Below, in pieces: positions 1,655 through 56,270 of a stretch of DNA of 64,000 nt. Every line of letters begins with the position of its first letter. Position 1 is the stretch's first letter. Origin of the DNA: Mytilus trossulus (lineage: Eukaryota); assembly GCF_036588685.1 (NCBI RefSeq), contig NC_086373.1, positions 70,928,001 to 70,992,000 of the forward strand. The letters run 5' to 3'. The position numbers were made by a program, and so were the translations under genes. The notes beneath the pieces are model-generated. The model was not told the origin of the DNA and ran no database searches. It saw only the letters and a program-made list of their open reading frames with translations.

Positions 1655-1806
1655 AAATTCACATGTACATTGTCATTGCGTCAAAACATGATAAATGTAC
1701 TACAAGGTTAGGTAAATTTTAACGAATATATTATGTAATTAAAATGGGAATTTTAGAAATAATTTGTAGGTAATAACTGCATGTCATTTATCAGAATATA
1801 TATAAG
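1655..1806 (+). promoter_or_regulatory. Promoter of vWA paralogue 1: conserved block plus TATA-like box
   Basis: AAATTCACATGTACATTGTCATTGCGTCAAAA (1655-1686) is conserved upstream of all three paralogues. TATATAAG lies ~65 bp before the ATG. Confidence 0.55.
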
Positions 1807-1868: not shown

Positions 1869-3110
1869 ATGATTAAGGCAAAACAACTATTTATCCTATT
1901 TTGGTTATTTAGCGTGCTGTTGGTAAAAGGATTTCACGCCATACTGCCAAATGTGCCTCTTAGCCAACATGGACAATTAGATTTGGCATTTTTAATAGAC
2001 ACAACAGGCAGCATGGGTTCGTATATCGAAAGTGCAAAGCAGAACATCAGAGGAATTGTAAACGAAATAGTTACTTCATCCGGCAGTGATGTACGATTAG
2101 CGTTGATAGAATATAGAGATCATTCACCACAAGATAGAACTTTTGTCACCCGCAAAAATGACTTCACATCTTCTGTATCCACTATGAAATCCTGGTTAAA
2201 TACTGCACGTGCTAGAGGAGGAGGTGATGGACCGGAAGCAGTAGCAGACGCTATGTTCGAATCAACTAAATTATCATGGCGACAGGATGCAACAAAAATA
2301 TGTGTCATGATATCTGATGCACCTCCCCATGGACTTGTGCCGTCCGAAGACAGTTCATTTCCACAGGGATCTCCAAACGGTCATGATCCGATGCAAATAG
2401 CTCGTGACTTGGCCCAGAAAGATATAACTTTATATGTCATTGGCGTGGAGCCACCAATTGTTTCTTATAAAGACTTTTTCATGGCTTTAGCTTATCTCAC
2501 AGGAGGCCAGTATGTCCCCTTGTCGATACCTCGTCTTTTGGTTAATGTTATAACAGGGGGAGCTCAGGAAGAACTTTCATTACAAAGGTATCAAACAGAC
2601 ATACAGCATGAAATCGACACATATTATGGAGGCGGTGGAGGTGGTGGAGGCGGAGGAGAAGGGGGAGGTGGTGGTTCCAAACCAATAAACAAACAAGAGA
2701 TTGCTAATTCTCTTTACCAGAAATTTAAAAAATTAGGTGCTAAATCCAAACATTTATCTAGGAACAATAAAGCTATAGAAGGCCCTTCAGCAAATGCTAA
2801 GTTAATAGCATTAAAATATTCGATGGCAGAAGTAAGGAAAGTATTTAAAAAAGGAACAACTCCAGGAACATTAGGAGGTGGCGGCAGTGGCAGTGGGAGA
2901 TTCAGTGGCGGAGGGAGCGGCAGTGGGAGCCATAGTGGCGGAGGGAGCCATAGCGGAGGAGGTGGCGGAGGTGGCGGTGGAGGCGGGGGTGGTGGTGGCG
3001 GTGGTGGCTCAAGTAGAAGTGACACATATTCAACAAAAGAATCTGGAATAACACTGGAACAAATTAACAGATTAGTCGAAAGGAAGACGGCAAGATTACC
3101 AAGGGGTTAA
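1869..3110 (+). CDS. Secreted vWA-domain protein with Gly-rich inserts (paralogue 1, 413 aa, no intron in CDS)
   Basis: First ATG at 1869 (the ORF track starts at TTG 1857). Hydrophobic signal-like N-terminus LFILFWLFSVLLVKG. vWA motifs DLAFLIDTTGSM (MIDAS variant), EYRD, GGGDGPEAV, ISDAPPHG. Poly-Gly tracts. C-terminal STKESGITLEQINRLV shared with both paralogues. Confidence 0.9.
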   Translation: MIKAKQLFILFWLFSVLLVKGFHAILPNVPLSQHGQLDLAFLIDTTGSMGSYIESAKQNIRGIVNEIVTSSGSDVRLALIEYRDHSPQDRTFVTRKNDFTSSVSTMKSWLNTARARGGGDGPEAVADAMFESTKLSWRQDATKICVMISDAPPHGLVPSEDSSFPQGSPNGHDPMQIARDLAQKDITLYVIGVEPPIVSYKDFFMALAYLTGGQYVPLSIPRLLVNVITGGAQEELSLQRYQTDIQHEIDTYYGGGGGGGGGGEGGGGGSKPINKQEIANSLYQKFKKLGAKSKHLSRNNKAIEGPSANAKLIALKYSMAEVRKVFKKGTTPGTLGGGGSGSGRFSGGGSGSGSHSGGGSHSGGGGGGGGGGGGGGGGGGSSRSDTYSTKESGITLEQINRLVERKTARLPRG

Positions 3111-3917
3111 AATGTAAAAAAAAACACAAAAAAACAATTATAAGCAGGTAATGTTTACGTGTTTTTGACTTCTTCTTTCTTTATTTGATCAGTTAAACCA
3201 TTACATGAAAGTATAGTTTGTTCCTTTACTTAATGATGTAAAGATTCATAAATAGAATTGAAGCATCTATTCTACACCCAAAAAAAAAGATAAGTGTTTA
3301 TTGATTTAACCGTTGTGATTAAACATGACACACCGGTAATAATAGAATTGGTTTCCCATGACTTGAAATGGAAAAAATTTGATTGTAAATAACCATGTTG
3401 TATAATACTGTCAAATTTTCTCACACAACTATATACAATTTTTTGTTTGCGGGTTGTTAGAATGTTAGAATTATTTATTTGTTCTTTTTCTTTTGTTATT
3501 TTTTTTAATCAGTTTAGTCGTATGTCTGTGTATGTAAACTAAACGTACTGGTATAAGACGGCCCTACATTTTTGTCTCTGAACCTGATTCAGATAATCCA
3601 GAAATTGATCTGTCACAAATATCAATACTTTTTACTTCTTTTCGGTCTTTACTGCAAGCGAAAGTTATATCACCTTTCATGGTGTCAATTAAGCCATTTA
3701 GGTTAATCTATAGTGCATTTTTTACATTATTTTTACATTAATTTACATTAACCAAAATATAAGACATACCGTTGATGCTTTTTAATTATATAGAAGGCAA
3801 TGCACTGTATTTTGTTTTCCTACCCTTTGTGAGTGCTCATATCAAAGTATAATCCAGAAACATCATGTGAGGCAGAACAGACTGTACGTTTTACTTTTGA
3901 TTAACAATCAATAGGTC

Positions 3918-4400
3918 AAAATAAACTCGTCATAGATACCAGTATTGAATTATTGTATTTACGCCAGGCGTGCGTTTTGTCTACAAAAGAATCATCAATG
4001 ACGCTCGAATGGAAAAAGGTAAAATGGCCAAACAAAGCACGAAGTAGAAGACCAAACATTCATAAAAGTTTTGCCAAAAACAGCTAAAGTAATATATTCC
4101 AGAGGTTGAAAAGCCTACGTGGCACGGTACTTGTTTATCCCAAATTCATGTATATTAGATGTTATATTTGTTATTCTCGTGGGATTTTGTCTGATGCTTG
4201 GTCCGTGTCTGTGTGTGTTGCGTTTCGGTGCTGTGTCGTTGTTCTCCTCTTATATTTAATGCGTTTCCCTCGGTTTTAGTTTGTTACCCCGATTTTGTTT
4301 TTTCTCCATGGATTTACGAGTTTTGAAGAGCGGTATATACTACTGTTGCCTTTATTTAGTATTTTAAAATTCAAAGTTTAGTTAACAGTAAATTTATAAG
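3918..4400 (-). mobile_element. Decayed retrozyme copy (family A) with mutated hammerhead, interrupted by a SINE-like repeat at ~4118-4357
   Basis: Colinear with 4505-4750. The core at 3961-4004 reads TTGATGA..AAAA instead of CTGATGA..GAAA. Homology resumes after ~4357. Confidence 0.6.
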
Positions 4401-4504
4401 CAATATCTATTTTACTATAAGTTTTTAAGTTCTTAAGTCAATTTTGATGAATGGTAATGAAGTTTAAAGATTCAGATTAGCCTTACCGATTGATTATATG
4501 TCGG

Positions 4505-4870
4505 TAAATAGTTATCAAAAGTACCAGGATTATAATTTTATACGCCAGACGCGCGTTTCGTCTACATAAGACTCATCAGTGACGCTCAGATCAAAATAGT
4601 TTGAAAGCCAAACAAATACAAAGTTGAAGAGCATTGAGGACCCAAAATTCCAAAAAGTTGTGCCAAATACGGCTAAGGTTATCTACTCCTGGGGTAAGAA
4701 CATCCTTAGTTTTTCGAAAAATTCAAAGTTTTGTACACAGAAAATTTATAAAAATGACCATATAATTGATATTCATGTCAACACCGTAGTGCTGACTACT
4801 GGGCTGGTGATACCCTCGGGGACGAAACGTCCACCAGCAGTGGCATCGACCCAGTGGTTTAAATAGTTAT
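4505..4870 (-). mobile_element. Non-LTR retrozyme monomer (family A, 355-nt unit)
   Basis: Bounded by direct repeat TAAATAGTTAT (4505-4515 and 4860-4870). Contains an intact minimal hammerhead and the structured motif shared with family B. Confidence 0.8.
4542..4585 (-). ncRNA. Minimal type I hammerhead ribozyme
   Basis: Minus strand reads GCGUCA-CUGAUGA-GUCU(UAUGU)AGAC-GAAA-CGCGCG-UC/UGGCGU: core boxes intact, stem I and stem II pair, palindromic stem III, GUC cleavage triplet. Confidence 0.9.
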
Positions 4871-5397
4871 AAACTATTTACAGGCTCAATAGATAAATGT
4901 AAGGCCATAGATCAGACATTTACAACAATGCAAATGACATTATTAACCAATATTTTAATTTGTTCGTTAATATTTCCTATGCAAGTTGAATCATAAAAAA
5001 CAAACACAGGACTAACAATCCTCATCTTGTAAAACATTTCCGTAGACACAAGGAAGGCTACTACTGGAATCGGGAGCACAGAATTGTGACACCATAAATT
5101 ATGGTTGCAATGAGAAAAAATGTTGAATAGGTATGATTCTTGTAGCTCGGCGAAAGTGAAGATCACTTTCAACTCTGAAACTTAAAGTAGACATCGTCAT
5201 GGTCATCGCCATTATGTATCACTTACTTAGCATGATGTCTCTTTTAATGAAATTGAAATTATTATAAATTAAGGAATGTATCTCCCTCATGCAAAGCTCT
5301 GATTCCTTTTAGGATTTGGCTATACTTTTTGGACCTTTTGGATTATAGCTCTTCATCTTTTTATATAAGCTTTGGGTTTCAAATATTTTGGCCACGA

Positions 5398-5441
5398 GCA
5401 TCACTGAAGAGACATGTATTGTCGAAATGCGCATCTGGTGC
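5398..5441 (+). ncRNA. Minimal type I hammerhead ribozyme
   Basis: GCAUCA-CUGAAGA-GACA(UGUAU)UGUC-GAAA-UGCGCA-UC/UGGUGC: core intact, palindromic stem III, predicted cleavage after C5435. Confidence 0.9.
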
Positions 5442-5748
5442 AGAAAAATTGGTACCGTTAATGTTATTACTACCACTGGGTCGATGCCTCTGCTGGTGGA
5501 CTGTTAGTCCCCGAGGGTATCACCAGCCCAGTAGCCAGTACTTCGGTACTGGCATGAAAATACGGATTTTTTTGTGTTATTAAAATTTGCTGTTACAAAA
5601 TGTTTGAAATTATTATAAATTAAGGAATGTATCTCCCTCATGCAAAGCTCTGATTCCTTTTAGGATTTGGCTATACTTTTTGGACCTTTTGGATTATAGC
5701 TTTTCATCTTTTTATATAAGCTTTGGATTTCAAATATTTTGGCCACGA

Positions 5749-5792
5749 GCATCACTGAAGAGACATGTATTGTCGAAATGCGCATCTGGTGC
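5749..5792 (+). ncRNA. Minimal type I hammerhead ribozyme (second copy)
   Basis: Identical to 5398-5441 and 351 nt downstream. Predicted cleavage after C5786. Confidence 0.9.
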
Positions 5793-6044
5793 AGAAAAAT
5801 TGGTACAGTTAATGTTATTAATGGACTTCTGCCATTTATAAATACATATTTATCACATTCGCTGGCAGCGTGATGCACCAACCCTTCCAAAACTTCATCC
5901 TCTGTGCAGCTTATGTTTGAAAAAACACTGTTACAAACCCTCATTCAAATTTTCAAATCTATATACATTTAACGCTTTCGTCTAGCATATTGTCAGTAAC
6001 ATATTGTTTCGGAGCGGTTCTAAGTAGACAAAAGATGTTTTCTA

Positions 6045-6480
6045 CATATCATTTTGCTAATCAAGGTATCGATGACATCGACTTAGGCAATCTTTTAAAA
6101 TCAATCAACTCACTCGAAAATACTTCCCTATTCAAAGATCAGTCAGAAGCTTTCTTGTCTTTTACCTAAACAAAAGCTTTTGGAACTATAATTTTCATTT
6201 ACTAACACGTGTTGCATGATCTCAATATTGAAGACTTCGTGTCTACCTCTCCCGCCTCCACCTATTGTAACTTCTCATTTATATAATCCAGCAGTTCACT
6301 TTATTACTAGTGTCATGCACATTGTCAAATACACTACTTTTTACAATGTATCCTTATACCCGATATGTCGTGAGCATTAATACATTAGTTCAAAAGGATA
6401 CATTGTAAAAATTAGTGAATTTGACAAAACTTCAAAATACTGATGGATTCAATCGATGAGTATGCCAATAAATAGGATCC
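6045..6480 (+). pseudogene. Highly decayed retroelement ORF remnant, possibly Penelope-like
   Basis: Frame-broken peptides FANQGIDDIDLGNLL, HVLHDLNIEDF, IYNPAVHFIT and FKILMDSIDEYA resemble, from recall only, the region upstream of RT in bivalve Penelope-like ORFs. Confidence 0.35.
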
Positions 6481-6913
6481 TCATTACTACGGATATGTTG
6501 TGTACCGAGCCCTGGATTTTGGACACGGTCCAAGTAAAATTGCTAATACTTTAAAAAAAAAAAAAAACTTAATCTAGGAAGATCAATTATTCAACACTGT
6601 GATTAATTCTTTGAAAATTGTTTTAATTTGTAGTAATATTGCTTTTGTTATCAGTAATGAAGACTAACTATTATTTTTATATATATATGCAAATGTACGG
6701 CTCTACAATCCTTCGATACCAGTATATTGGCATTGCACAAGGTCCTGTTTTTCTCTGACTGATTATAACGTCTTTGTTACTAAATCCAATTGACTTAGGA
6801 TGCGTTAAGATCGATATTTCAGTCTTTAATAGATGTAGGATTGTTTTTCATTAGTTGTTATTGACTTTGAACTATATGAAGCATTTGCGAGTACTTTCCG
6901 TTATCTTCAGACA

Positions 6914-9266
6914 GTCATTCCCAAAAAATGAGTACAATTACAAAATTAGTGTCGCCGGCAAATAACCACAAAATGCAAGCTTAACATATGTCACAGATAA
7001 TCTTTTTCGTGTTTTAAGTGATTAATATGTATACTAAAATAAAATTGTATTCTTTTGTGATGTAAATCGTAAATATATTTGTGTGATTTTCTATTCAATT
7101 TACGGAAATCACACGAATTACGAATGTCGCCAAGAAAAACTCCAAATATCGGTGTGAATTGAAATACTTTATTTCATCTAAATCATGATTAGATATGCAC
7201 TATTTTTTTGACACTGTATAGATTTTTATCCACAAAAATATTTTAGAATCAAGTTGTAATATACACTTTGATTTACTCATTAAACCAATGTCGCCGATAA
7301 ACGTATAACCTACCGTAACGTATCTTTAGGTACAGTCAAAACATATTTATATGATTGAAAATCATGCCCAAAGTGACTTTAAGCAAAGTTGGTACATCAA
7401 ATTTTAAAATCCTGCCTTTAACTTTTATTGCAATGAAACGAAAAATCAAAAAAAATCTTCTTTCTCTCTTTTTTGTTTATTGTCGCATATAAGAATCTAA
7501 CCTACGTAACGCGTATTTTGGAACGCACTAACCAAGAACAAATCAAAATGCTGATTATTTCATTGAAATCACCCATAAAGCGTCTTAATAATCAGTTTTG
7601 AGAAAGCAACTCAACAATATTATAACATATGTCCATGTATAATGTAAATAACACTCACCTCCGTTTAAATAACCTCCGTGACGCAGTTATTTACAGTTTA
7701 GTTGTCAGACATTTTTTTATCAGTGTCAGCGGCTGCTGACACTGCCGAAAGTAATTTTTGTAGCAGACAGCATTTATTATAAAGGAAACAGACAAACAAA
7801 ATACTGAAAAAATACCCAAAATGTTGTTTTGAGATAGGTAGGTTAACTTGTTTTTCCCTATTATGTGAGCAACATTATAACGTTTAATAAAAGTTATATC
7901 AGCCTTTTTCTTAGATTTGAAATAGTCTACAACACAACTTGTGTAATTACGACGACAATCATAACTTTAACAATGGTTTTTAGCAAACATTTTCAAGATT
8001 ATTTAGGACTCAACAATGTAACGGAGGTTGTGCAAATAAAAAAAATCTAAACATGCATGTAAACACGATCATACCAATTGAAATTCTTGTACATTGTTAT
8101 AGATACCAAATCTGTCCATCAATTATCACTAATAAATACCAAAAGGTGATGTCTATCATAGAGGACATCATTGATTTACGTTACGGAGGATAGAAAATTA
8201 AGGAATAAAAGATTTTTTCTCTAACAGGACTTTACTCTTCTTCGATAAGGATGTACTTAGAAAAATGTGTAATTCTGTTGTCTTGTTTGTCATTCAATTC
8301 CAATATTTACATTCATTTATATGTTGAACTGGAATTGTCCGTTATGGAGGTTTTAAATGTCGTTACGGAGGATAGAAATTTTCGAAATGAAACTATTTGA
8401 CTCCAAAACTTCATAGTTGAGTATAATGTATACATTATAGTGTGAAGGAAGATGACATTATCTGTAAAGAGCTAATAAAATTAAGTTGAACATTATTCGG
8501 TTTAGGTAAATAATATTTTTAGTGAAAGTTCATGAATCGTTGCGAAGATTTTGACAAGAACAAGTTCATTTGACTAAAAGAAACATACAACTTGATAGAA
8601 AACAGTTTTTTTAGTTTGTAATGTCAATAAATTGTTTAGAAAAGCTAGCATTAAAGAGTTAAGTGTTACTATGTATCAGCATTTAGATACTGGTTTGATA
8701 TTAACCTCCGTAACAAAGATGGGGGTGTGGATTGATACAAGCATAACAAATACATACAAGTGATTCAAAACATATATAATAGGGTTTTTCCTTGAAAGCT
8801 GTATTATGAAACTAAAATAATATACAGCATACCATTTCATAAGTTTAAATTCATTACTAAATAAGTTGTGAAAACTATTAATTTGAATTATTTTTTAAAC
8901 GCTATATAAATTCAGACCTTAAAATTGGTATTTGCTTTCAATATAAACAGAATAATACGTATAAATCAGTTTGCTATGGTGGTAAATGTTTCCCTTTTCA
9001 CATGAGCCTTGATTTAAATCTTGTGTTTTTCTCTAATGCAATTTTAAAGATGACTTTATACAACACTAACCTCCGATACGTTCATACTGACCTTGTCTTA
9101 CAAAAAAAGCTAAAACTTGAAAACAACTAAAATGGTGTAAGTAAAAATTTAAAAAATGACAGACTAGATATAGACACAGAAGAAAACAGCACTCTCTCTC
9201 TGCTCAGTTGAAATTTATTTTTTAACAGTGTCTACATTCGAATTGTACCCATTTTTTGGGAATGAC
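6914..9266. mobile_element. Non-autonomous TIR DNA transposon (~2.35 kb)
   Basis: GTCATTCCCAAAAAATGAGTACAATT and AATTGTACCCATTTTTTGGGAATGAC are inverted termini. Dispersed internal CCTCCGTAAC-type motifs occur in both orientations. TSD unclear. Confidence 0.7.
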
Positions 9267-10169
9267 AATCTGTAATTTGTGTCTTTCTATTGTTTGAATG
9301 TATAAATACCCGTCTACGTTCACTCTGTGTATTTCTATTTGTATCTATTTGATGAGTTTATCATATCGTACAAATTATATCATAAAAGATAACGAGTCTG
9401 ATAGCATACAGTGGGGTATCCAGTATGTCATGTTGTCCAACTTTTATTACCTTTATTTCTGGCTGTCAATAATACGAAATTATGTAACTGGTCTTTGTAT
9501 CAGATGAAAGTATGATCTCTGTTATGCTTCGAATTATAATACCATTGACTTCCATATGAGTTTGTTTGTGTGGCTGCACCATAGACGCAGAATTAGAACT
9601 AGAAATTGTGTCTACCATGCATATTTGAATACAGATAGTCTTTACAATTAAAATAAACAAATAAATTTAAACGTGCAGTTGTAGATCTTGAGAAATATGT
9701 TTCATCATTTATCCATGGGTTTACATAGTTTGAAAACGAAAATATTTCAATGATATAAAATGGTTACCCCCAAACTTAATAAAAACCCTGTTTCAACCTG
9801 TTGTCATATGTTCCTAAAATGTGATTGATATCCTGCTGTTATGATTATTTAAATGCTCATAAATGAGATCAGTCAACCTTTGACCATCAATAAGCACAAC
9901 GTTACGCTTAAGAAAACCCATGTTGTTTAACATAGTAAATTTAATTCAGATTATGGATAGGAACATCTTTGAGGTGAGGGAGTACAAACTGTATTGTATA
10001 TGATAGTTTTTAATGATTCAATAAATGTAAATGAGAAAACAGTCACTCATATAAACATACACAATAAGTCAGTTAATTCATCAAGAAAAGTCTAGATTCT
10101 TTGGTTCATTATTTTGCTCACCCATATAATTAGTCTATCACAAATACACAATGTCATGCTGATAAAATC

Positions 10170-11474
10170 TCAAACACTAGGTAATCTTGCAGTCTCTTTT
10201 TGAACTAGTCTGTTAATTTGTTCCAAGGTTATTCCAGATTCTTTTGTTGAAAGTTTGTCACTAACACTTGAACTCGGACTACTAGCTTTAGATAGTCCGA
10301 TTTTGGAAAACGAACTTGACATTCGCCGTGCACTTCCTCCTCCGCTTCTACGGAACCCACCCTTCGTTGCGAAATCTGGCATCAACCTACCCAATCTTTT
10401 ACGTGGTGAAAATGAAAATGATGTTCTCGGAGTATTTCCTTTTTTGAATATTTTTCTTACTTCTGCCATTGATTTTTTCGATGCTAATAATTTAGCATCA
10501 GCAGAAGGTCCATCTAGAGTTTTGTTGTTCTTAACCAGTTGTGTAGATTTTGCACCTGATTTCTTGAGCTTTCGGAATACAGTTTGTGCAATTTTCTGTC
10601 TATCTATTGACGTGCCTGACCCGGCCGCTGCAGAAGCTTGTTTAATTTCTCGTTGCACGTCTGCTTGAAACTTCCGTAAAGACAGTTCTTCCTGAGCTCC
10701 CCCTGTTATAGCATTAACTAAAAGACGAGGTACTGATAATGGGACATATTGACCTCCTGTGAGATAAGCTAAAGCCATGAAAAAATCCTTGTATGGAACA
10801 ATTGGAGGCTCCACGCCAATAACATATAAAGTAACACCCTTCTGAGCCAAGTCACGAGCTATTTGCATAGGATCGTGACCATTTGGAGATCCCTGTGGAA
10901 ACGACGTGTCTTCAGACGGCACAAGTCCATGAGGAGGGGCATCAGATATCAAGACACTTATTTTAGTTGCATCCTGTCGCCATGACAATCTAGTTGTTTC
11001 AAACATAGCGTCTGCAACGGCTTCCGGTCCATCACCTCCTCCTCTAGCACGTGCAGTATTTAACCATGATTTCATAGTAGATACAGAAGACGTAAAGTCA
11101 TTTTTTCGGGTGACAAAAGTCCTATCTTCAGGTGAATGGTCTCTATATTCTATCAATGCTAATCGTACATCACTGCCGGATGAAGTAACTATTTCCTCTA
11201 CAATTTCTCTGATGTTCTGCTTTGCACTATTTATATACGAACTCATACTGCCTGTTGTGTCCATTATGAATGCTAGATCTAATTTTCCATTTTGGGAAGA
11301 TGATGGTTTTATGAAGTCAACAATGGACTCCTGTTGTCCTTCAGGTTTAAAACGCGTGTCTGGAAGTTTAATGCTTTTTCCTTTCACAGATTTTATTATT
11401 CTAGTGTTGATCCCAGTTATTAATAACACACACAGAAGCCAAAATGATATACAAGATTGTGTTGCCTTGGTCAT
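10170..11474 (-). CDS. Secreted vWA-domain protein with basic Arg/Ser/Phe-rich tail (paralogue 2, 434 aa, no intron in CDS)
   Basis: ATG start, signal-like ISFWLLCVLLITG, same vWA motifs (DTTGSM, GGGDGPEAV, DAPPHG), conserved C-terminal peptide. Confidence 0.9.
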   Translation of the reverse strand: MTKATQSCISFWLLCVLLITGINTRIIKSVKGKSIKLPDTRFKPEGQQESIVDFIKPSSSQNGKLDLAFIMDTTGSMSSYINSAKQNIREIVEEIVTSSGSDVRLALIEYRDHSPEDRTFVTRKNDFTSSVSTMKSWLNTARARGGGDGPEAVADAMFETTRLSWRQDATKISVLISDAPPHGLVPSEDTSFPQGSPNGHDPMQIARDLAQKGVTLYVIGVEPPIVPYKDFFMALAYLTGGQYVPLSVPRLLVNAITGGAQEELSLRKFQADVQREIKQASAAAGSGTSIDRQKIAQTVFRKLKKSGAKSTQLVKNNKTLDGPSADAKLLASKKSMAEVRKIFKKGNTPRTSFSFSPRKRLGRLMPDFATKGGFRRSGGGSARRMSSSFSKIGLSKASSPSSSVSDKLSTKESGITLEQINRLVQKETARLPSV

Positions 11475-11522
11475 ATTGTCAGATACCTTATTGAATAATC
11501 TATGATGAAAGCTAGTAACGAG

Positions 11523-11770
11523 TTTTTATATGTTCTCAACAGTTCACTACTCGGGAAAATGACGTAAAGTTACTACTTACCTACGTCGTAAGAAAATCAC
11601 CATGTATATACAATACAAATTTGGTAAACATGTCGTAAATCCATCAAATTTTGACGCAATGACAATGTACAGGTGAAATTTGAATATTTTACAAATATCA
11701 ACGATAATGATAATGTATACCACTCCAAAGAAAAAGAAAATCCCAACCTCGAATCTGAATTTATTGACGT
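11523..11770 (-). promoter_or_regulatory. Promoter of vWA paralogue 2
   Basis: Minus-strand CATATAAAAA ~50 bp upstream of the ATG, conserved block at 11649-11680, ACGTCAAT at 11763-11770. Confidence 0.55.
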
Positions 11771-14700
11771 GATATGTTGGCTATTGCACACCCTTTTTTT
11801 TAATTAAGACTTCATTCTGCATGTATATCTACCACTCAATTAACATGAGTTGACAACGATTAAATATCTTAATCAAAATATGTAAACGTTTTCAAACAGA
11901 CTTTAAAATCGTTATTGAGAAAAAAGACACAAAATTAAAAGCAGTGCATCATTAAACTTCTTCTATATTTAAAGCTTATTTCCAATTTTCGAAATTTTGC
12001 AAAAAGGCTTATGAATTTATTGAGGTCTAAAAAATATAATCCGAAACTGTTAGTTATAGTTGTTTGCAGAAATGGCTATGGCTAGACAAAAAATGACAAA
12101 AAGCACATACCGAAAGAGTATTAATAATGAAATAGACATTTTTTTTTAATTTGAAATGCAGCTAGGAACTTATATGATATTATGTTATGAAAATAGATAA
12201 AACTCAAAGGTGGTTCCTTTTCAGCTTCATTTCAAACAGTCTTTCCACAAACATACACAGACTATTGTTTTTCACTGTATTTATAAATGAAATGAAATAC
12301 CACAAAACAATATCGAGTTGTCTTCATAGAAAGCTATGGATCAACATCAAATGCAATGTTTCATGAACTGTGTCTATAATATTCTCATTTGGTGGATTTG
12401 AATCAGATTGTTTTGTGCTTATACTTTGTAAAGTAATAAGAGCAAAAGGATTAGCAAAATATACAATATATTGTTCAGTAAAGCAGATTAATATTACAGA
12501 CGCTTAAGACCCAATTTACAAAGAAACACGTAACTAAATGCATGTATTACAATATCAAAAATACACTCAGTTACTAAAATAATTGTAATTGTAATGTAAC
12601 TGCTTTAATAGAAACTTTACCTTATACACTCTTAGTCTTATGTTGATCAGTATAGTTCTGAACATATTTAAAAGAGCAAATGGATATTGTAGCAAATTTA
12701 CAATCTTGTGCAATATTTATAAACGAATGTTTTGTAACTTTAGTTAAAATCGTCCATTTTACTACATTTACAAACTCTTATTTGACCAAATATGTACTCA
12801 ATTACAATCGTTATTTTCTCAAACGTTTTTATTTTATTCATGTCTCTGTAATTGTTATACTTTTGATCATGGTAAATAATACTATGATGTTATAACATTT
12901 GGTGTTTAATAAAACATCAGGGTGGTGCGATGCTTTTTGTTTTAGATGAATCAGTGAAACTGGCAGATTCTGTAAGGGACTAATTATAACTAAAAACATC
13001 TTTGAATTTTTGAATTTTTTAAGTTCTTCTTTGCCTCTTCTATATCTCTCTAATTTGTACTATATATCCAAAATTTGAGATAATCCTAACAAGATAGTAA
13101 ATTTAAAGAATAAAATAAGAAAAAGACCTTAAAAATAAATTTAAAGATTCTTTTATCTCGTTCACGCCTTTGTTTAAAGTTACATTCTTTATGTCGATTC
13201 AAATGATTGATAAGTTTAACTGCCTACGTCGGTTAAAAACGTAACATTTTTTCTAGATCAACTGAAGAATTGAGTATAGACTATACTACAAATGCATTTC
13301 GACAGGTAGGAAATAATGGGATTTGTTTTTTCGCCAGTGTCATGTTTATATCGCTTATTATTTAAATATCAAGAAGAAAAATTAAACTGTTTTTGTTTAC
13401 TTATTGACTTGCTTTGATAGAAATAACAAGTGTGTTTTCCCTAAGATACACATTATTGCTTAAGGCTAAGTCATGTCGTGTTTCATTATACCAAACAAGA
13501 CAATTACATTTACCACCTGGCGAAACAAAAATGTCATTTACAAGTAAATATGCACATGATGTATGAGAATGCATTGTTGTCCTAATGTTATATGCAAGTA
13601 TTTGATTTGTTGTAAGCAATATGGATCCTTGCGTTATAATGTATGCACATGATATAACTGCATCTAACTAAAAATATATGTCCGTGCGCATACGTATTAA
13701 CAAATGGGTATTCCGCGACAGACAAAAACCATACATAGTAGTTTTTCCAAACATGTCACGACAATTTTCATGTTGTCTTTTTTGGGGTCTTTTTTAAAAC
13801 ATTATTTCAAGCAGTGACGTGTATTTGATTATAAGTTTGTGCTGCTGGTAAGTAATTTATCAATTTGAACATGAAGGCAGCTATCTGATTTTTTTTGTTT
13901 TCTTTTGGAGTTCATTCAATTTCCCCATCCCTTGTTTGTAACCGTGATTTGTTTCTTGTTCATCGATTTACAAAATTTCAACATCGATTAACCAGCGTTC
14001 CCTAAATTCAACATTTCAGATTTTTTTCCAGTAGGATGATAAAAAAATCAGTTTTTTTCCATTGAAACTAGCAATTGGATGGCGTTTTGCTCACACAGCA
14101 GCGCCATATAGAAATAGTTAAAATACTGTCTTTTCTTTTTAAATGCAGATATTTTATTGGTAACCTAGAACTAGAAACATTTTTTTACACTTGGTTATAA
14201 ATGATTTCATTCAAAAAAAGAAAATAGGGTCAAAATATTTTGGGACATCCTTTTTGGTGAGGTGAAAATAATCTTGCATCTTTATCAACACGTACAAGCA
14301 AGTTTCCAACATAATTTATTTAATTATCTGAAATACAGTGTCAAATCGATAACTTTTCTTCAGAGACCAAAGGACGATGATTTATGCAACTACAGGTCTT
14401 AGAACAGTGAACAAAAGCAACACAGTAAAATACTATTATAAAGGCCAAATCATGACTATATGTGAAAAATATCAAAAAGAATACCAACTTCCTGTTTACG
14501 TACAAAACAATAAAAGTTAAAAACAACTAATATGAATAAAACCCATCAATTACTGCAAACTTTAAAAAAAAAAAAAAAAAAAAAAAATCAAAACAGGAGT
14601 ATGCTTCTGTATTTTTTAAATAGTTTTTCATTAGGAAAAAAATAAATACCGTTCAGAATACATTTTAAGTTACCTTAAAATAAATCCATGAAAAAGACGT

Positions 14701-15579
14701 AAAATTAATTTTATAAGATTCTTATTTGATGAAATTTTGATTATCCGTAATGAATAAATTGTTTTGTTTGGATAATTGAGTATGGAACCCCTGGAGTGAT
14801 ATGCAAAATAAAATTACAACTTCTGCGCGCTAGTTACTATCTTGTGCACAGAACTTGCGCGCACAAGTTACACGTGCTCCTATTGACATGCGCTCATTCT
14901 GTTTAGAAGGCTAATATATGACAAACCGTGACTGCCTCATGCGAACAATATATATGTTTATATATACACATCCTTTTCCTACATATACACAGAGTTTACT
15001 ATATATGCACATATTTGTTCTGCATATGCACATAGTTTACTTTATATGTAGATACTTTACCTATTATTTTTTGCACTTAGTTTACTTTATATGCATATAC
15101 TTTTTCTTTATATGCACATACTTATTCTATATATGAATTTAGTTCTTCATGTGCATACTTTTCTCAATATGAACAAAGTTTTTTAATGTGAGAATAACCA
15201 TTCATATGATGCTTTTCTGTTGTTTTTTTTTTTCAGTCTGAAATAAAGCTCCTGCTATCATAAGCAGAATGTTTAATAAGCATTTCTTAAGGATGTATGT
15301 TCTCAGTTTAAGAATAACGATTTTTTTGTATAACTGTAATTTTTTGGGGATTATATAATGGTATAGCGCTGTAGCCTTCATCTTTAGTCAGTCACTTGTT
15401 TTCAAGCCATAACGTTTAATTAGCCGATTTGCTTGAATGATATTTTAATATAAGGAATCCTTCCACAACAAATACAAAATAAATACATAATACAGTTATA
15501 TATAGCAGCTTACCTATTTAATAAAAACATATGCATTCAATATAAGGAGAAAAATACATTAGTTTCATGCATCTTTATT

Positions 15580-17960
15580 CTGTTCAGTTAGAAGATAGTT
15601 TGAACAGTTGGTCTTAAAAGTATCTAAATTATCTATTTCTTTAATATTTTTTGGTAAATTATTCCAGGTAATTAGACCAGAATATCTAAATGTTCTTTTT
15701 AAATAATCAGAATTAGGTCTTGGGACATGAAGAAGTCCTGATGTTGTCGACCTCAGACAATAATTTTAAAGATCAGTACAAGCAGTAAATTTCATAGATA
15801 GATAAGCAGGTGCTAGACCATTCATACATTTAAACATTAACACAGCTTGAAAATAGTGTATCCTCGTAAATATAGTATCCATGCAAGTTTTTTAAACATT
15901 AATGTTGATGGGGAATCAAAAGAAACAGATAAAATTCTTGCAACACGTTTTTGGAGCTTATGTATCCTCTCCAGATAACTGTTTGTCGTAGGACACCATA
16001 CTGTACAACAGTAGTCAATAATGGGTAATATGTAGCTATTGTAAAAAAAGAATAAGACCCTTTAATACCTTCATCAAGAACGCTCAAAGCCAAACATTGG
16101 AAATCCGAAGATATATAAGTACCGAAACCTTTTTAGCAAATATATTCTGGCTGAAATAGTTTTGCATATTTTATCAATTTGAATTGACCATGGTAGATGT
16201 TTATCAATATGAATTCCAAGAAGTTTTTCAAATTCAACATTATTTAAAGTGATATTATCTTGTGATAAAACACATAAACATTCATTGCAGTTTTCCAGTT
16301 TTCTGTCTGATTCATCAAGCATAAATTTGGATTTCTTGCTATTTATCGTCATATCATTTTCTTTACACCATTTAAGGTGGCTCGTGGGTACAAAAATTTT
16401 AGCAAAAAATTAAACCTTTATTTGTTCATTACACATTTTATTTATTACCCTATTAGTTGTTACTTTATGATATGGTACAAAAAACAACCCAAAAAAATGA
16501 TTTGGTTTGGCCCCAGATGACTTTAAAAATTGAAAAAGCTCCAAGTTATCTCCCTTTGGTGCAAAAATGCCATTTGAAATATCTTTTTTAACTCATCGGT
16601 GACCTATATTTTTTATTATTGCTTTCAAATAAGCTGTACATAAACTAAATAATTGTAAAATTTAAGCGATTTCTTATATTAGGTTATTTTTTTATTTCGA
16701 TATTTCCTCTTTTTCTTCTATTAGTTCAACAGAAAAAAAGGACATTAACAAAAATGCATGCTTCTTCCAGAGGCAGATTTTAGCTTAAATGAACGGTGAC
16801 CCCATTTTTTATTTCATTTTTCATTTAAGTATGTGATAAAGTTCATTTATGAAAAAATATAGCGAAATCCTATATTAGAAAAAAAAAACATTTATACCCA
16901 GGAGCCCCCTTAATAACATTGTCTAAGTCTTTATTTAAACATATATTTAAATTGACAATAGATTTAGATGACAAATACAAAGTTGCACCATCAGAATATA
17001 GATCAGATTCTGTATATTTGAAGGTTAATGGCAAGTCATTGATATAAATAAAAAACAATAAAGGTCCAAGTATAAAACCTTGAGGAACTCCAAAAGTTAC
17101 AGTTTCATATTCTGATTCAGTGGTTCCTAACTTATCTTTTTGCATTCTCTGAGAGAGGTATGATGAAAACCATTTTACAGAGTGGACATCACATTTGTAA
17201 AATTTTAGTTTTGATAATAAAAGTATATTGTGATTTACTGTATCAAATGCCTTCTTAAAATCTAAAAAGAGAATAGCGGTAAATTTTCCATTGTCAAATT
17301 CCTCTAAACAATTTATCAATTATTTTAATGAGTGCTGTATGACAAGAATGTTTTTCTCTAAATCCAGACTGCTGTTGTATTAATAATTTTTGTGTGGTTA
17401 AGAACAAATAAAGTTGTTTAAAGACAGTTTTTTCAAATAACTTGGACACAGTGGGTAAAATTGAAATTGGTCGATAATTGTTTGGGTCTGTTTTATTCCC
17501 TAGATTTTAATATATTAGGAAATATTCCTGTACATTAACTAAGGTTTGTTATGTGAGCAAGGGAGCTTGCTACAATCGACCTTGATAATTTTAAAATTCT
17601 TGGTCCAACTCCCTCAGTTCCGGTTGATTTAGTTATGTCTAGATTTTTTAGACCTTGTAGAACCTCATCATTTGTGACAGTAAATAATGAGAATTTAGTA
17701 TCATCAATTATTTTTGATTTGACACAGTTATTAATTTTCTCAGATTTAAAAGTTTTGTGAGGATTTGATATAAGCTTCTCACCTACTGTGCTAAAATGAT
17801 CATTTTAGCAGTTAGCAATATCATTTTTGTTTACAATTACTTTCCTTCGTGTGTTAAAATGTCAATTTCCTGTTTTGTTGTTGAATTCATATCCTTCAAA
17901 TGCCTCCAAAGAATTTTACAGTTTTTATCGTTTTCTACTGCATCCATTAAGTAACTAATT
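15580..17960 (-). mobile_element. Decayed CR1/L2-type LINE (RT and C-terminus)
   Basis: Minus-strand motifs NYRPISILPTVSKLFEK, QSGFR, FLDFKKAFDTVNH, GVPQG.ILGPLLF, YSDG (degenerate YADD), LGIHID..L.W, FRYSG...WNNLP, with frameshifts. Boundaries approximate. Confidence 0.85.
16376..16909. mobile_element. Kolobok-like non-autonomous element inserted in the LINE
   Basis: TIRs GGTGGCTCGTGGGTA / TACCCAGGAGCCCCC with TTAA TSD (16372-16375, 16910-16913). Removing it restores the LINE frame NVIKWCKENDM. Confidence 0.8.
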
Positions 17961-18349
17961 TTGACAATCAAATATTAGAAACTTGATACGTCTCTACCAA
18001 TTATGTAAATAAAAAGGAATTTCACTCCTTGGAAATTTTTATTCGGGGGAATAACCCTAAGTAATTGAAACAGTTACTTGCACCCTTATGTTGACCTAAC
18101 ATGTAACGTGAACAAGATATATCCGTATTTAAGAGAGAGGTTAATGATGTGGGTTTCACGTCCTCTTCTATAAATTTGTCTTTCAATGCACGTAATATCT
18201 AGCTATCTCGGAAGCTAATATATTTAACTATAGGTTAGTTCTTTGTTCAGGAGGAACTTTCATTATATCCTTGGTTATATATTGATGTGGTTCGTTGGCT
18301 AGATATTTCCACTACAAATCATACACGATGGTCTTTATGTATAGATTCT

Positions 18350-18885
18350 ATGTACTGACGTTGTTTATCATCTAAATTAAGTGTTGTAGTGTTTTTATAT
18401 TTGTCTTTCTAAATTGTTGTTAATAGTCTATTTTGTTGGTGTCCATTTGACCTGACTTTGTACTTATACATACCGTCATTGTATTATTGTGCTGTGGTAA
18501 ATTTGTGTATTCTTGTCCTTAGTTTTTGCTAATATGCTTTGTCTATATGCCATTTTGTTTTCCTTATTAGCATATGTGTTTGTTTGTATATTGATTCAGA
18601 TTTTAACACAATGTTGACTGCTGTAACCCTGTTTTGACATTTGTACCTATTATGTCTTTACGATTTGTTTACACATTGTTGTCAATAAAATGAAATTTTC
18701 TGCGACTGTCATACAAGTGAGAGATTTAGCTAGCTATCAAACCAGGTTCAATCCACCATTTATATAAGAAAATGTATGGTGTTATCAATATGTGATGTGT
18801 TCGAGCATTTGATTTCGTCATTTGATAAGGGACTTTTCGTTTATAATTTTTCTTGGAATTCGGTATTTTTGTTATTTTATTTTTT
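18350..18885 (+). repeat. Interspersed SINE-like repeat
   Basis: 3' part is clearly homologous to 51005-51333 (GCGACTGTCATACAAGTGAGA..TAGCTAGCTAT..AACCAGGTTCAATCCACCA). Confidence 0.65.
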
Positions 18886-19204
18886 AATGAATTTCCAATA
18901 GTGTTAAGAACTAATTATTTATAAAATGACTTTAAGTTAAAAAGATTTCATATCAAAGTAAGACCTTTTTAAACCAGTGCCTTATATTACAGTAGATGAT
19001 TACTCATTTTAATTTCATTACACAGGCATTAAGTACTGAAGTTGAATGGTAAGCATTATTTCTATATCACTGCACTCACTTCATGCTAACAACAACCACT
19101 GAAGCAATTTGCTAAGATCTCTTAACACTTGATCAGTGCGTGGCCGATGAATTTGGGGAGTTTGATACCACAAATTTTGTAGAACTTTTTAATTCTTACT
19201 GAGT

Positions 19205-19436
19205 GCACCAATGGCAGAGTGGTTTAAGTAGTCCAACTATTGTATCATTAGCCAATCAACACTGAGGTTGTGAGTTAGAATCCCGTACAGTTCAGATACA
19301 CTCCAATTTTAATTGACTAGGATTGTCAGTTTTCCTACCGAAGTTCGGGGGGTCTCTCCGAGCACTCCGGCTTCCTCAACCAATAAAACTGACAGCCACG
19401 AAATAGCACTAGTGTTGAAATGGCGTAAAACATAAA
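19205..19436 (+). mobile_element. tRNA-derived SINE (V/Meta-type central domain)
   Basis: A-box-like TGGCAGAGTGG, B-box-like GTTAGAATCC, central TCTCCGAGCACTCCGGCTTCCTC, A-rich tail. Confidence 0.6.
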
Positions 19437-20062
19437 AAAAAATAATTAATTGGATATTGTCATTCTATTTCGTGAGCACGTTACAATCAACGTTGACTAA
19501 TCACTAACACGATGATGAGATCTTTGAATATTATCTCTATTGGTATTAGCATCGATTTTGAGCTGAATGAATTAAAATATAAATAGATGTATTTTGCTAT
19601 ACAGTTATGAACACTGATTGATAACTTAAAAAAAAATAATTGATTAATTTCTTAGTCAGCAAGCTAATTTTCAGAAAACATGTTTTTATAAGGATGTTCC
19701 AATGTAGCCTTCAATTCAGTGGTTGAATTGTTTGATAGCTTGACATCTCGGGACCCTTTGATAGCTTACTATTTGGTATTGAGATTTAACTTGGATTCAC
19801 GCCATGTGGTATCTGATGGATAGTTGTGTCATTGACATTCATACCACATCTTCACTATTTGTATACTAAGCATTGGGTTTTTTAAATTATTTTGTATGAA
19901 ACAATTGTATGCAAAGTGAAATTATTAAGTAAGGGAACAAACAGTAATGTGGAAATTACATTTTTAATGATTCAAAATTAATAGAAAATGGAAGTAAGAT
20001 ACGATCAAACATACACATATACACACAAATAAACAATTTCATACAAAAGTTAAATTTGCATT

Positions 20063-21376
20063 TCAAACACTCGGTAATCTTGCCGTCCCCTTTTCAACTA
20101 GTCTGTTAATTTGTTCCAACGTAATTCCAGATTCTTTTGTTGAAAGTTTGTCACTAGCACTTGAACTCGGAATCATAGCTCCAGGTGACATGCTTCTCGA
20201 TGGGCCTCCACCGCCGACTCTTCCACGCATGCCTCCACCCATGCCTACACGCATGTCTCCACCCATGCCTACACGCATGTCTCCACCCATGCCTACACGC
20301 ATGTCTCCACCCATGCCTCCGACTCCTAAAAATGGTGTCGAAGTGGTCCCTTTTTTGAATACTTTTCTTACTTCTGCCATTGATTTTTTCGATGCTAATA
20401 ATTTAGCATCAACTGAAGGCACTTCTAAAGTTCTGTTGTTCCTGACTAATTGTTTAGATTTAGCACCTGATTTCTGTAGTCTCTGAAATACAGTTTGTGC
20501 AATTTGCTGTTTATTTAAGGAGTCACCTGCTGCAGAAGCTAGTTTAATTTCTCGTTGCACGTCTGCTTGAAACTGACGTAAAGACAATTCTTCCTGAGCT
20601 CCCCCAGTTATAGCATTAACTAAAAGACGAGGTACTGATAATGGGACATATTGACCTCCTGTAATATAAGCTAAAGCCATGAAAAAATCCTTGTATGGAA
20701 CAATTGGTGGCTCCACGCCAATAACATATAAAGTTACACCTTTCTGGGCAAAGTCACGAGCTATTTGCATAGGATCATGACCATTTGGAGATCCCTGTGG
20801 AAATGAACTATCTTCGGACGGCACAAGTCCATGGGGAGGTGCATCGGATATCATAACACTTATTTTAGTTGCATCCTGTCGCCATGACAATTTTGTTGCT
20901 TGATACATAGCTTCTGCAACGGCTTCCGGTGTATCACCTCCTCCATTTGCGCTTGCAGAATTTAACCAGGATTTCATAGTGGATATCGAAGACGTAAAGT
21001 CATTCTTTCGGGTGACAAAAGTTCTATCTTGTGGTGAATGGTCTCTATACTCTATCAATGCTAATCGTACATCACTGCCAGATGTAGCAACTATTTTGTC
21101 TACAATTCCTCTGATGTTCTGCTTTGCACTATCTATATACGAACCCATACTGCCTGTTGTGTCCATTATAAATGCCATGTCTAATTTTCCATTTAGCGAT
21201 GGGGGTCGTTTTATTATGTCAGCAATAGACTCTTGTTGTCCTTCTGGCCTTGTAGGCGTTTTTGATAGTTTAACATACTTTCCTTTCAAAGATTTTGGTG
21301 TTCTAGTGCTGATTTCACTGATTAACAACACACATAGAAGCCAAAATGATAAACACGATCGTGTTGCCTTTAACAT
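20063..21376 (-). CDS. Secreted vWA-domain protein with GMGGDMRV-repeat tail (paralogue 3, 437 aa, no intron in CDS)
   Basis: First ATG at 21376 aligns with the paralogue starts (the ORF track starts at GTG 21436). Signal-like LSFWLLCVLLIS, vWA motifs, conserved C-terminal peptide. Confidence 0.9.
   Translation of the reverse strand: MLKATRSCLSFWLLCVLLISEISTRTPKSLKGKYVKLSKTPTRPEGQQESIADIIKRPPSLNGKLDMAFIMDTTGSMGSYIDSAKQNIRGIVDKIVATSGSDVRLALIEYRDHSPQDRTFVTRKNDFTSSISTMKSWLNSASANGGGDTPEAVAEAMYQATKLSWRQDATKISVMISDAPPHGLVPSEDSSFPQGSPNGHDPMQIARDFAQKGVTLYVIGVEPPIVPYKDFFMALAYITGGQYVPLSVPRLLVNAITGGAQEELSLRQFQADVQREIKLASAAGDSLNKQQIAQTVFQRLQKSGAKSKQLVRNNRTLEVPSVDAKLLASKKSMAEVRKVFKKGTTSTPFLGVGGMGGDMRVGMGGDMRVGMGGDMRVGMGGGMRGRVGGGGPSRSMSPGAMIPSSSASDKLSTKESGITLEQINRLVEKGTARLPSV
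20225..20318 (-). repeat. Coding 24-bp tandem repeat (3 perfect copies plus 1 variant)
   Basis: ACACGCATGTCTCCACCCATGCCT at 20247, 20271 and 20295, encoding GMGGDMRV. Confidence 0.95.
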
Positions 21377-45528: not shown

Positions 45529-45543
45529 TGTGTGGCCAACTGA

Positions 45544-56214: not shown

Positions 56215-56270
56215 GTTGTAAGAAATATGATCGTAAATTAGTTTATATATTCCTTGTATATAACTTCTGT

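What the first reader, a model, noticed from the sequence alone, without database searches (positions are those of the whole stretch)
1869..21376. Three secreted vWA paralogues with an interchangeable low-complexity cassette
Seen: all three share a signal-like N-terminus, a highly similar vWA core and the C-terminal peptide STKESGITLEQINRLV..TARLP. Between 'FKKG' and that peptide each carries an unrelated segment: Gly/Ser with GSHSGGG; basic Arg/Ser/Phe; or (GMGGDMRV)n. Established: vWA domains mediate metal-dependent adhesion and occur in mollusc byssus and shell matrices. Inference: a family of extracellular scaffold or adhesive proteins in which a disordered loop, closed by the conserved C-terminal helix, tunes the material properties.
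Basis: partly seen in the sequence, partly recalled or inferred. Interest (0 to 1): 0.75.

Follow-up and report, generated by a model that had tools for sequence, protein, structure and literature searches.

The report
Mussel secreted shell-field vWA protein trio
Three neighbouring mussel genes encode likely secreted proteins with an adhesion-type (vWA) domain and no kinase part; one matches a gene already shown to be active where the larval shell forms and to rise in acidified water, where it was taken for a kinase, so they are likely parts of the shell's organic scaffold, and their variable loop is an old family trait rather than a swappable cassette.

Summary
The three intronless genes are real and built as described. 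The organism is a Mytilus mussel. All four primers of the published larval gene 'VwkA' (shell field; up at pH 7.4) fit gene 2 best, and the in situ pair spans its whole frame. That paper calls it a kinase; the frame holds no kinase domain. The vWA fold is closest to integrin beta I domains. The C-terminal peptide is predicted to fold back onto the core, making the low-complexity stretch a loop. That layout is ancient: fungi, rotifers and protists have it, mostly without signal peptides. All 45 signal-bearing rows of a 118-row tree lie on one branch whose named members are all bivalves; it is cysteine-poor and basic. The loops are not swapped cassettes: relatives bridge them and gene 2's loop is conserved across Mytilus. 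Best reading: secreted, metal-binding shell-matrix or extracellular-matrix proteins (0.6); secretion, binding and any material role are untested. A new variant of a known kind.

The parts
1869..3110 (+). Gene 1, intronless ORF, 413 aa (P0001): signal-like N-terminus, vWA, helical extension, Gly/Ser loop, closing peptide
2627..2674 (+). Gene 1 extra poly-Gly insert after the last vWA helix (also in the M. coruscus orthologue P0009)
2847..3029 (+). Gene 1 low-complexity loop, 61 aa, Gly/Ser
3030..3107 (+). Gene 1 conserved C-terminal strand-helix peptide
10170..11474 (-). Gene 2, intronless ORF, 434 aa (P0002); orthologue of the published shell-field gene 'VwkA' (CL7460.Contig2) of M. galloprovincialis
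11403..11474 (-). Gene 2 predicted signal peptide, aa 1-24 (cleavage site judged by eye)
   Evidence: inference
10677..11285 (-). Gene 2 vWA domain, aa 64-266, integrin beta-I-like, with D72-T-T74-G-S76, D112, D148-x-P150-E151, D178
10446..10676 (-). Gene 2 helical extension, aa 267-343, that is predicted to receive the C-terminal peptide
10251..10445 (-). Gene 2 loop, 65 aa, basic (net +13), Arg/Ser/Phe/Gly; low model confidence; length fixed across four Mytilus orthologues
10173..10250 (-). Gene 2 C-terminal strand (408-414) and helix (417-428) with Q419 and R422, each in 99% of 118 family rows
20063..21376 (-). Gene 3, intronless ORF, 437 aa (P0003)
20144..20356 (-). Gene 3 loop, 71 aa, Gly/Met; relatives in this subgroup have 47-71 aa
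20224..20318 (-). 24-nt tandem repeat encoding GMGGDMRV, 4.0 copies
20066..20143 (-). Gene 3 conserved C-terminal strand-helix peptide

Best explanation
These are three tandem copies of a vWA-only mussel gene whose products are likely secreted by shell-forming epithelium and likely serve as metal-dependent binding components of the shell's organic matrix, with the low-complexity stretch predicted to be a flexible surface loop that has diverged in place. Steps: (1) shown: intact single-exon frames, vWA domain, no kinase domain; (2) shown in print for the gene-2 orthologue: mRNA over the whole trochophore shell field, raised at low pH; (3) inferred: secretion, from the hydrophobic N-terminus and from the clean split of the family into a signal-bearing, cysteine-poor, basic bivalve branch and a signal-less, acidic rest; (4) predicted: the last 30 residues dock as a strand and helix on the extension and the last vWA helix, closing the loop; (5) inferred: a divalent cation at a beta-I-type MIDAS grips a carboxylate of a partner, while the basic, disordered loop and N-terminal stalk make weak contacts with acidic matrix proteins or polysaccharides; (6) inferred: copies differ in those weak contacts because their loops drifted by slippage and deletion.
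For: Primer mismatches to gene 2: 1, 0, 1, 0 of 20 nt; gene 3: 3, 1, 3, 2; gene 1: 1, 3, over 3, over 3 (0 of 100 shuffles reach these counts). The one mismatch at the start codon primer fits the M. galloprovincialis orthologue P0279, which has Ile at residue 2. PMC9283884: shell-field signal, logFC 1.247, adjusted p 0.022, qPCR p 0.019. PMC6641155 S3 Table: peptide LALIEYR in acid-soluble Perna nacre, assigned to Unigene12120, which reads like P0050 of the signal-bearing branch; that tryptic peptide is in 26 of 51 rows of that branch and 1 of 67 others. Tree: one branch, SH-aLRT 100, holds 45 of 45 signal-like rows. Core cysteines 1.1 against 6.3, median pI 9.0 against 5.5. AlphaFold2: loop blocks pLDDT 42-56, C-terminal blocks 97-98. 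Core with peptide: score 0.92, best of 3 controls 0.02, runs agree in at least 97% of contacts, partner pLDDT at least 83; the mark was reached by 51 of 78 solved and 2 of 108 mismatched pairs (eukaryotes 39 of 65 and 2 of 126; peptides untested), and two parts of one chain pass easily. Fold: integrin beta-6 I domain Z 18.1, rmsd 3.1, 202 aligned. Metal-site residues D72, T74, S76, D112, D148, E151, D178, H182 are kept in all or nearly all of 118 rows.
Against: No protein of these three genes has been shown outside a cell or in a shell. The Perna hit is one 7-residue peptide (score 2.43) in a list that also holds plainly cellular proteins. Family motifs were not found in the supplements of the M. 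galloprovincialis adult shell proteome (0 hits in 5 files) or the Tridacna shell proteome (0 in 1 file), and no vwkA row came up in the Dreissena trochophore shell-field tables; these files may lack sequences. A 1.3-kb probe could cross-hybridise with genes 1 and 3 (about 90% DNA identity in the vWA), and nothing published places genes 1 or 3. Shell-field expression also fits cell-surface or signalling roles; that paper finds many intracellular genes there. The signal call is my hydropathy rule; N-glycosylation sequons are no commoner in the branch (25 of 51 against 42 of 67). Metal and ligand binding are untested.
Confidence: 0.6

Rival explanations
1. Secreted epithelial or mucus proteins for adhesion to, or recognition of, microbes and particles; the shell field is only one of several secretory surfaces, and the loops vary because of binding diversity or relaxed constraint.
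For: The signal-bearing branch is multi-copy in clams and mussels, with very different loops; basic pI suits binding to microbial or mucin polyanions (inference); beta-I-type metal sites are ligand-recognition sites.
Against: The only localisation in print is the shell field. The vWA core is under purifying selection (dN/dS 0.09-0.44 among the three copies), and gene 2's loop is conserved rather than hypervariable.
Confidence: 0.17
2. Byssus matrix proteins working like PTMP1, cross-linking collagen threads, with loops tuning the material.
For: PTMP1 is a byssal vWA protein and shares the fold (Z 15.0, rmsd 2.8, 173 aligned). Gly-rich low-complexity stretches are common in byssus (recalled).
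Against: PTMP1 ranks 19th, below integrin beta chains. Loops hold 0-1 Tyr and 0-2 His, unlike DOPA- or His-rich foot proteins (recalled). The branch is expanded in Mercenaria and Mya, which have no adult byssus (recalled). Gene 2's orthologue is active in trochophores, before a foot exists (recalled timing). No motif hit in the quagga byssus supplement (0 in 1 file).
Confidence: 0.1
3. A secreted regulator or enzyme-like protein that keeps the unknown biochemical activity of the ancient cytosolic family and acts on matrix assembly without being a structural part.
For: Motifs YRDH, GGGDxPE and DAPPH are nearly invariant from fungi to mussels in both secreted and signal-less forms, more than a passive scaffold needs. 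R422 and Q419 of the closing helix touch the vWA domain, which may couple it to the metal site.
Against: The same motifs align with the metal-binding motifs of integrin beta-6 (DTPE, SDAxxH), which explains them without catalysis. No enzyme stands among the 50 rows.
Confidence: 0.1
4. Gene 2 is an alpha-kinase like Dictyostelium VwkA that phosphorylates vWA shell proteins (the reading in PMC9283884).
For: Database names 'alpha-protein kinase vwkA-like' on several relatives and the paper's statement.
Against: The frame ends 6 residues after the closing helix; Pfam finds only vWA-clan families; the model accounts for the whole chain; the paper's own in situ primers run from the start codon to the last codons of this 434-aa frame; four orthologues are also 434 aa. 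Dictyostelium VwkA has its kinase domain at aa 398-592.
Confidence: 0.01
5. The loops are modular cassettes exchanged between genes or taken from unrelated DNA.
For: Directly compared, gene 1's loop matches those of genes 2 and 3 no better than shuffles (230 and 173 of 1000 shuffles as high; gene 2 against gene 3, 26 of 1000).
Against: M. californianus P0006 matches both gene 2's and gene 3's loop (0 of 1000 each); M. coruscus P0009 matches gene 1's (0 of 1000) and gene 3's (4 of 1000) and shares the IPxSSxSD end. Loop type follows the tree of the core. The repeat is a simple 24-nt slippage array.
Confidence: 0.04

Closest known systems
'VwkA' (CL7460.Contig2) of Mytilus galloprovincialis larvae, PMC9283884
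   Same: It is the orthologue of gene 2 by all four primers; shell-field mRNA, up at pH 7.4.
   Different: The paper takes it for a kinase; it has a signal-like N-terminus and no kinase domain. The paper did not describe the protein, its paralogues or its loop in the sections I read.
Database family 'alpha-protein kinase vwkA-like' / 'VWFA domain-containing protein' (Pfam PF00092 plus PF25106 VWA_4), eukaryote-wide
   Same: Same vWA motifs, extension, low-complexity loop and closing peptide in molluscs, a hemichordate, rotifers, fungi, Rhodelphis and others.
   Different: Most relatives lack a signal peptide, are acidic and cysteine-richer, and have Pro/Ala-rich loops. I found no paper that characterises the family.
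Dictyostelium VwkA alpha-kinase (PMC2827801)
   Same: Source of the database name; has a vWA domain.
   Different: Carries an alpha-kinase domain (aa 398-592) and acts inside the cell; neither holds here. I did not align its sequence.
Integrin beta-subunit I-like domain
   Same: Best fold match (Z 18.1; all 44 rows Foldseek listed are integrin beta chains, best E 2e-10); DxPE and SDAxxH motifs align.
   Different: No PSI, hybrid, EGF or membrane parts; the Asp pair after the DxSxS motif (ADMIDAS, recalled) is absent; DTTGS in place of DLSAS; own extension and closing peptide.
Pif/BMSP shell matrix proteins (PMC11291548) and byssal PTMP1 (PDB 4cn8)
   Same: Secreted mussel proteins with vWA domains in shell or byssus; the likely kind of role.
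   Different: Pif/BMSP add chitin-binding and laminin-G domains, absent here; PTMP1 has no sequence match and only a general fold match. A M. coruscus vWA shell protein paper (PMID 32314940) was seen only as a reference entry; whether it is this family is unknown.

Membership tests
vWA domain superfamily with MIDAS | Rossmann-like vWA fold / Pfam VWA above cut-off | tested here: met
   PF00092 43-46 bits, cut-off 23.8, in 3 of 3; model and fold search
vWA domain superfamily with MIDAS | DxSxS motif plus two distant oxygen ligands | tested here: met
   D72-T-T74-G-S76 (Thr for the first Ser), E151, D178; kept in 50-51 of 51 and 64-67 of 67 rows; aligned to beta-6 motifs
vWA domain superfamily with MIDAS | Cation bound and used for ligand binding | not testable with these tools
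   needs biochemistry
VwkA alpha-kinase | vWA domain | tested here: met
VwkA alpha-kinase | Alpha-kinase catalytic domain | tested here: not met
   no such Pfam family in 3 of 3 window proteins or in 25 of 25 longer relatives scanned; frame fully accounted for
Integrin beta subunit | Beta-I-like fold with DxPE and DAxxH motifs | tested here: met
   PF00362 only below its cut-off
Integrin beta subunit | PSI, hybrid, EGF domains and a membrane anchor | tested here: not met
   434 aa, 0-1 Cys in the mature chain, no such Pfam hits, no C-terminal hydrophobic helix
Pif/BMSP | vWA together with chitin-binding and laminin-G domains | tested here: not met
   domain set from PMC11291548 passages; none
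PTMP1-type byssal vWA protein | Two tandem vWA domains (recalled) and sequence kinship | tested here: not met
   one vWA; no PDB sequence match of that kind at E up to 1
PTMP1-type byssal vWA protein | Presence in byssus or foot glands | tested here: inconclusive
   one quagga supplement searched, 0 hits; no Mytilus byssus proteome was reachable
Shell matrix protein (operational class) | Expressed in shell-secreting tissue | tested here: met
   gene-2 orthologue only, from PMC9283884
Shell matrix protein (operational class) | Secreted | tested here: inconclusive
   hydropathy rule and tree pattern; no SignalP, no experiment
Shell matrix protein (operational class) | Protein detected in shell | tested here: inconclusive
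   one peptide for a relative in Perna nacre; none in two other shell supplements
Eukaryote-wide 'vwkA-like' vWA-only family | YRDH, GGGDxPE, DAPPH motifs, extension, loop and closing QxxR helix | tested here: met
   the family is defined here from the alignment, not from a published definition

The most novel reading that the evidence does not exclude
Bivalves turned an ancient cytosolic integrin-beta-like domain into a self-polymerising matrix protein: the closing peptide, nearly identical in all three copies and hung on a 60-70 residue tether, docks into a neighbour's groove instead of its own, so the three proteins chain into networks with different spacers; and because the peptide clamps the last vWA helix, load on the chain would switch metal-site affinity as in integrins. 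This would be a force-sensing scaffold of the first larval shell and a handle on its acid sensitivity.
Probability: 0.08. Interest if true: 0.85.

Novelty: new variant of a known kind. Interest (0 to 1): 0.45.

Why it matters
It re-identifies one of the most strongly pH-responsive named genes of the mussel larval shell field: not a kinase acting on shell proteins, but itself a likely secreted vWA protein, one of three tandem copies. That makes a direct test possible (knockdown, antibody, matrix proteomics) of how low pH disturbs the first organic shell layer. It also shows an apparently single co-option in bivalves of an uncharacterised, eukaryote-wide, signal-less vWA family into the secretory route, with loss of cysteines and a shift from acidic to basic. 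Secreted vWA proteins with low-complexity stretches are already a common theme in shells and byssus, so the kind is known.

Tried and rejected
No genome is held for this window, so copy number outside it was seen only through protein databases. Expression in public runs: no RNA holder listed. Contigs of 4 runs from 4 studies, RNA only by guess, cover gene 2's frame, with loose ends that read like genes 1 and 3 and a signal-less paralogue, and no cover at 11622-12400; this is not used as evidence. Sequence search of solved structures gave nothing at E under 0.01. The extension plus closing peptide folded alone (pLDDT 77.6) had no clear fold match: best Z 6.7, rmsd 2.6, 76 aligned (Cdt1 C-terminal domain), no Foldseek hit at E 0.001; this does not show a new fold. 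NCBIfam gave nothing useful. The Atlas gave only vWA clusters. Motif search of paper texts: 0 papers. Supplements without a hit; not available; paper not held. Glycosylation sequons do not separate the branches. Gene conversion: same-residue codons differ at 40 of 178 sites in the vWA against 25 of 56 in the flanks for genes 1 and 2 (p 0.002), but not for the other two pairs (p 0.20, 0.24), and the vWA tree still groups gene 1 with its M. coruscus orthologue: a hint only. Retroposition as origin was considered, but the intron state of the signal-less relatives was not determined. Earlier scan notes held nothing on this family.


Full report
Observation. The window is AT-rich animal DNA. Three single-exon frames lie at 1869-3110 (+), 11474-10170 (-) and 21376-20063 (-), 70-78% identical as proteins. 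Each has a hydrophobic N-terminus, a vWA domain, a helical extension, a low-complexity stretch and a shared last peptide. No fourth copy is in the window. The closest named proteins are from Mytilus, and two of the window's proteins are recorded on a contig of the same length as a record named M. trossulus, so that species is likely. Similar neighbours occur in other Mytilus: adjacent accessions on one M. edulis contig, and the gene-1 orthologue and the nearby dioxygenase on M. coruscus contigs of one length.

Link to a published gene. A search for the database name 'vwkA' with 'mussel' gave one paper, PMC9283884. I read passages, sections 8 and 11 and its supplement in full; figures were not visible. 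It reports 'VwkA' as up-regulated in M. galloprovincialis trochophores at pH 7.4 (logFC 1.247, the highest among its named genes; qPCR p 0.019) and strongly expressed over the entire shell field. Its four primers match gene 2 with 1, 0, 1 and 0 mismatches, gene 3 with 3, 1, 3 and 2, and gene 1 with 1, 3 and twice more than 3. The in situ pair runs from gene 2's start codon to its last codons. The paper calls the product a kinase. The frame has no kinase domain, whereas Dictyostelium VwkA has one at aa 398-592 (passages of PMC2827801). The name is a transfer through the vWA domain (inference). Caveat: a full-length probe may also light up genes 1 and 3, about 90% identical in the vWA.

Protein-level evidence is thin. 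The Perna viridis shell proteome (PMC6641155; passages and supplement search hits) lists one peptide, LALIEYR, in acid-soluble nacre for a unigene that reads like P0050, a signal-bearing relative. The peptide is also in all three window proteins and in 26 of 51 rows of that branch against 1 of 67 others. Supplement searches of PMC4517812, PMC8217771, PMC6474901 and PMC9261976 found no family motif or name (of the last I also saw two passages); cells over 400 characters are cut and some files may hold no sequences. The supplement of PMC8194122 and the paper PMID 32314940 could not be seen and may bear on this.

Structure. AlphaFold2 on a 115-row alignment gives mean pLDDT 83.5: vWA 64-266, a long last helix running on to 284, a small extension, a low-confidence loop (blocks 351-400 at 42-56) and then a strand 408-414 and helix 417-428 in blocks at 97-98. 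Folding residues 62-348 with 403-434 as separate chains scored 0.92 against a best control of 0.02; the runs agree in at least 97% of contacts, partner pLDDT at least 83; the mark was reached by 51 of 78 solved and 2 of 108 mismatched pairs (eukaryotes: 39 of 65 and 2 of 126; peptides untested), and two parts of one natural chain pass easily, so this supports docking but not whether it is in cis or trans. The strand pairs with 307-317, the helix lies between helices 262-277 and 292-304, Q419 touches 262 and 266 and R422 touches 240-241; both residues are in 99% of 118 rows. The vWA's best fold matches are integrin beta I domains (Foldseek E 2e-10; Z 18.1, rmsd 3.1, 202 aligned), above PTMP1 (Z 15.0, rmsd 2.8, 173 aligned). 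The family profile aligns GGGDxPE with beta-6 NIDTPE and SDAPPH with SDADSH, at weak E-values of about 0.02. From recalled integrin numbering this implies a MIDAS and most of the neighbouring calcium site, without the ADMIDAS aspartates; that D112 belongs to that site is inference.

Family. One search found 294 relatives and listed 120; the profile search found 777 clusters at E under 1e-30 and listed 150. Of 10 looked up, named ones are rotifers (2), fungi (3), Rhodelphis and a foraminifer. In the 144 new hits, the closing-peptide profile scores 10 bits or more in 45 (42 within 40 residues of the end) against 0 of 144 shuffled; 8 of 130 scorable N-termini pass my hydropathy rule, of which 3 look like true signals by eye. 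The loop closed by a conserved peptide is thus an old, mostly intracellular feature. A quick tree of the core (118 rows; P0005, P0054, P0111, P0115 left out as gapped, shifted or cut; SH-aLRT only, midpoint root) has one branch at 100 with 45 signal-like rows, 4 rows without (all four look N-terminally truncated) and 2 unscorable, against 62 signal-less and 5 unscorable rows. Named members of the signal branch are Mytilus, Mercenaria, Ruditapes, Mya and Dreissena; named oysters, scallops, gastropods, a chiton and a hemichordate fall on the other side, but only the best 120 hits were seen. The branch has 1.1 core cysteines against 6.3, median pI 9.0 against 5.5, and net-positive loops in 37 of 51 against 22 of 67. 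A single gain of secretion in bivalves is the simplest reading; the distant relatives were not put in the tree, so the root is inferred.

The 'cassette'. Loop lengths run 21-147 in the signal branch and 15-116 in the rest. Among Mytilus, P0006 bridges the loops of genes 2 and 3 and P0009 bridges genes 1 and 3 (0, 0, 0 and 4 of 1000 shuffles as high), although direct comparisons with gene 1 are not significant. Gene 2's loop is 65 residues in 4 of 4 orthologues with 51-59 identities; gene-3-like loops vary from 47 to 71 and the window's copy has a fresh 24-nt array. This is divergence in place by slippage and deletion, with copy-specific conservation, not exchange. There is a weak hint that the vWA cores of genes 1 and 2 were partly homogenised.

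Verdict. Best reading, 0.6: likely secreted, metal-binding components of the shell-field or mantle matrix; rivals are mucus or recognition (0.17), byssus (0.10), a regulatory or enzyme-like role (0.10), cassette exchange (0.04) and kinase (0.01). I found no description of this family in ten literature searches (open-licence library only, listings read unless stated). It is a new variant of a known kind: worth following because it corrects and makes testable an ocean-acidification gene, not because the loop is a new mechanism.

Noticed in passing
window 29853-30512 (+): Intronless 219-aa intradiol ring-cleavage dioxygenase (PF00775, E 1e-24) with a signal-like N-terminus. Named relatives in M. 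coruscus (92%), Potamilus and Tegillarca among 11 hits. Passages of PMC9167512 call this activity unique to spider mites among animals and do not mention molluscs. A secreted catechol-cleaving enzyme in a DOPA-using animal deserves its own look; origin and activity untested.
   Followed up: partly
window 11285-10677 and 1977-2582: Synonymous divergence between genes 1 and 2 is lower in the vWA than in the flanking coding parts (40 of 178 against 25 of 56, p 0.002; other pairs not significant), a hint of gene conversion between the tail-to-tail copies.
   Followed up: partly
window 1799-1805 (+), 11530-11524 (-), 21447-21441 (-): A TATA-like word lies about 55-70 nt upstream of each start codon, in register in the DNA alignment; weak in such AT-rich DNA.
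   Followed up: no
window 16074-17804 (-): Broken reverse-transcriptase-like frames (LINE-type, recalled) between genes 2 and 3.
   Followed up: no
window 45097-45582 (-): Frame with membrane-helix-like sequence, probably one exon of a TMEM68-like gene (recalled); no Pfam hit.
   Followed up: no
window 61806-63836 (-): 676-aa frame with a Cys/His knuckle and protease-like motif, probably an LTR retrotransposon gag-protease (recalled); no Pfam hit.
   Followed up: no
window 53933-56304 (-): Cluster of short broken frames that look like a decayed DNA-transposon-like gene (impression only).
   Followed up: no
window 5257-5830: Two copies of a repeat of about 200 nt, about 350 nt apart, beside other common mussel repeats (seen).
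   Followed up: no
proteins P0023, P0025, P0035, P0315: Mytilus has at least two further signal-bearing subfamilies outside the window, with Thr/Pro/Tyr-rich or Arg/Ser/Tyr-rich loops; P0025 is recorded on a contig of the same length as the window's.
   Followed up: partly
proteins P0144, P0193, P0217, P0138, P0227: Distant family members are fused to an AIG1 GTPase, ankyrin repeats or an Hsp70 piece, or occur as 5-7 tandem vWA repeats behind a signal-like start.
   Followed up: no
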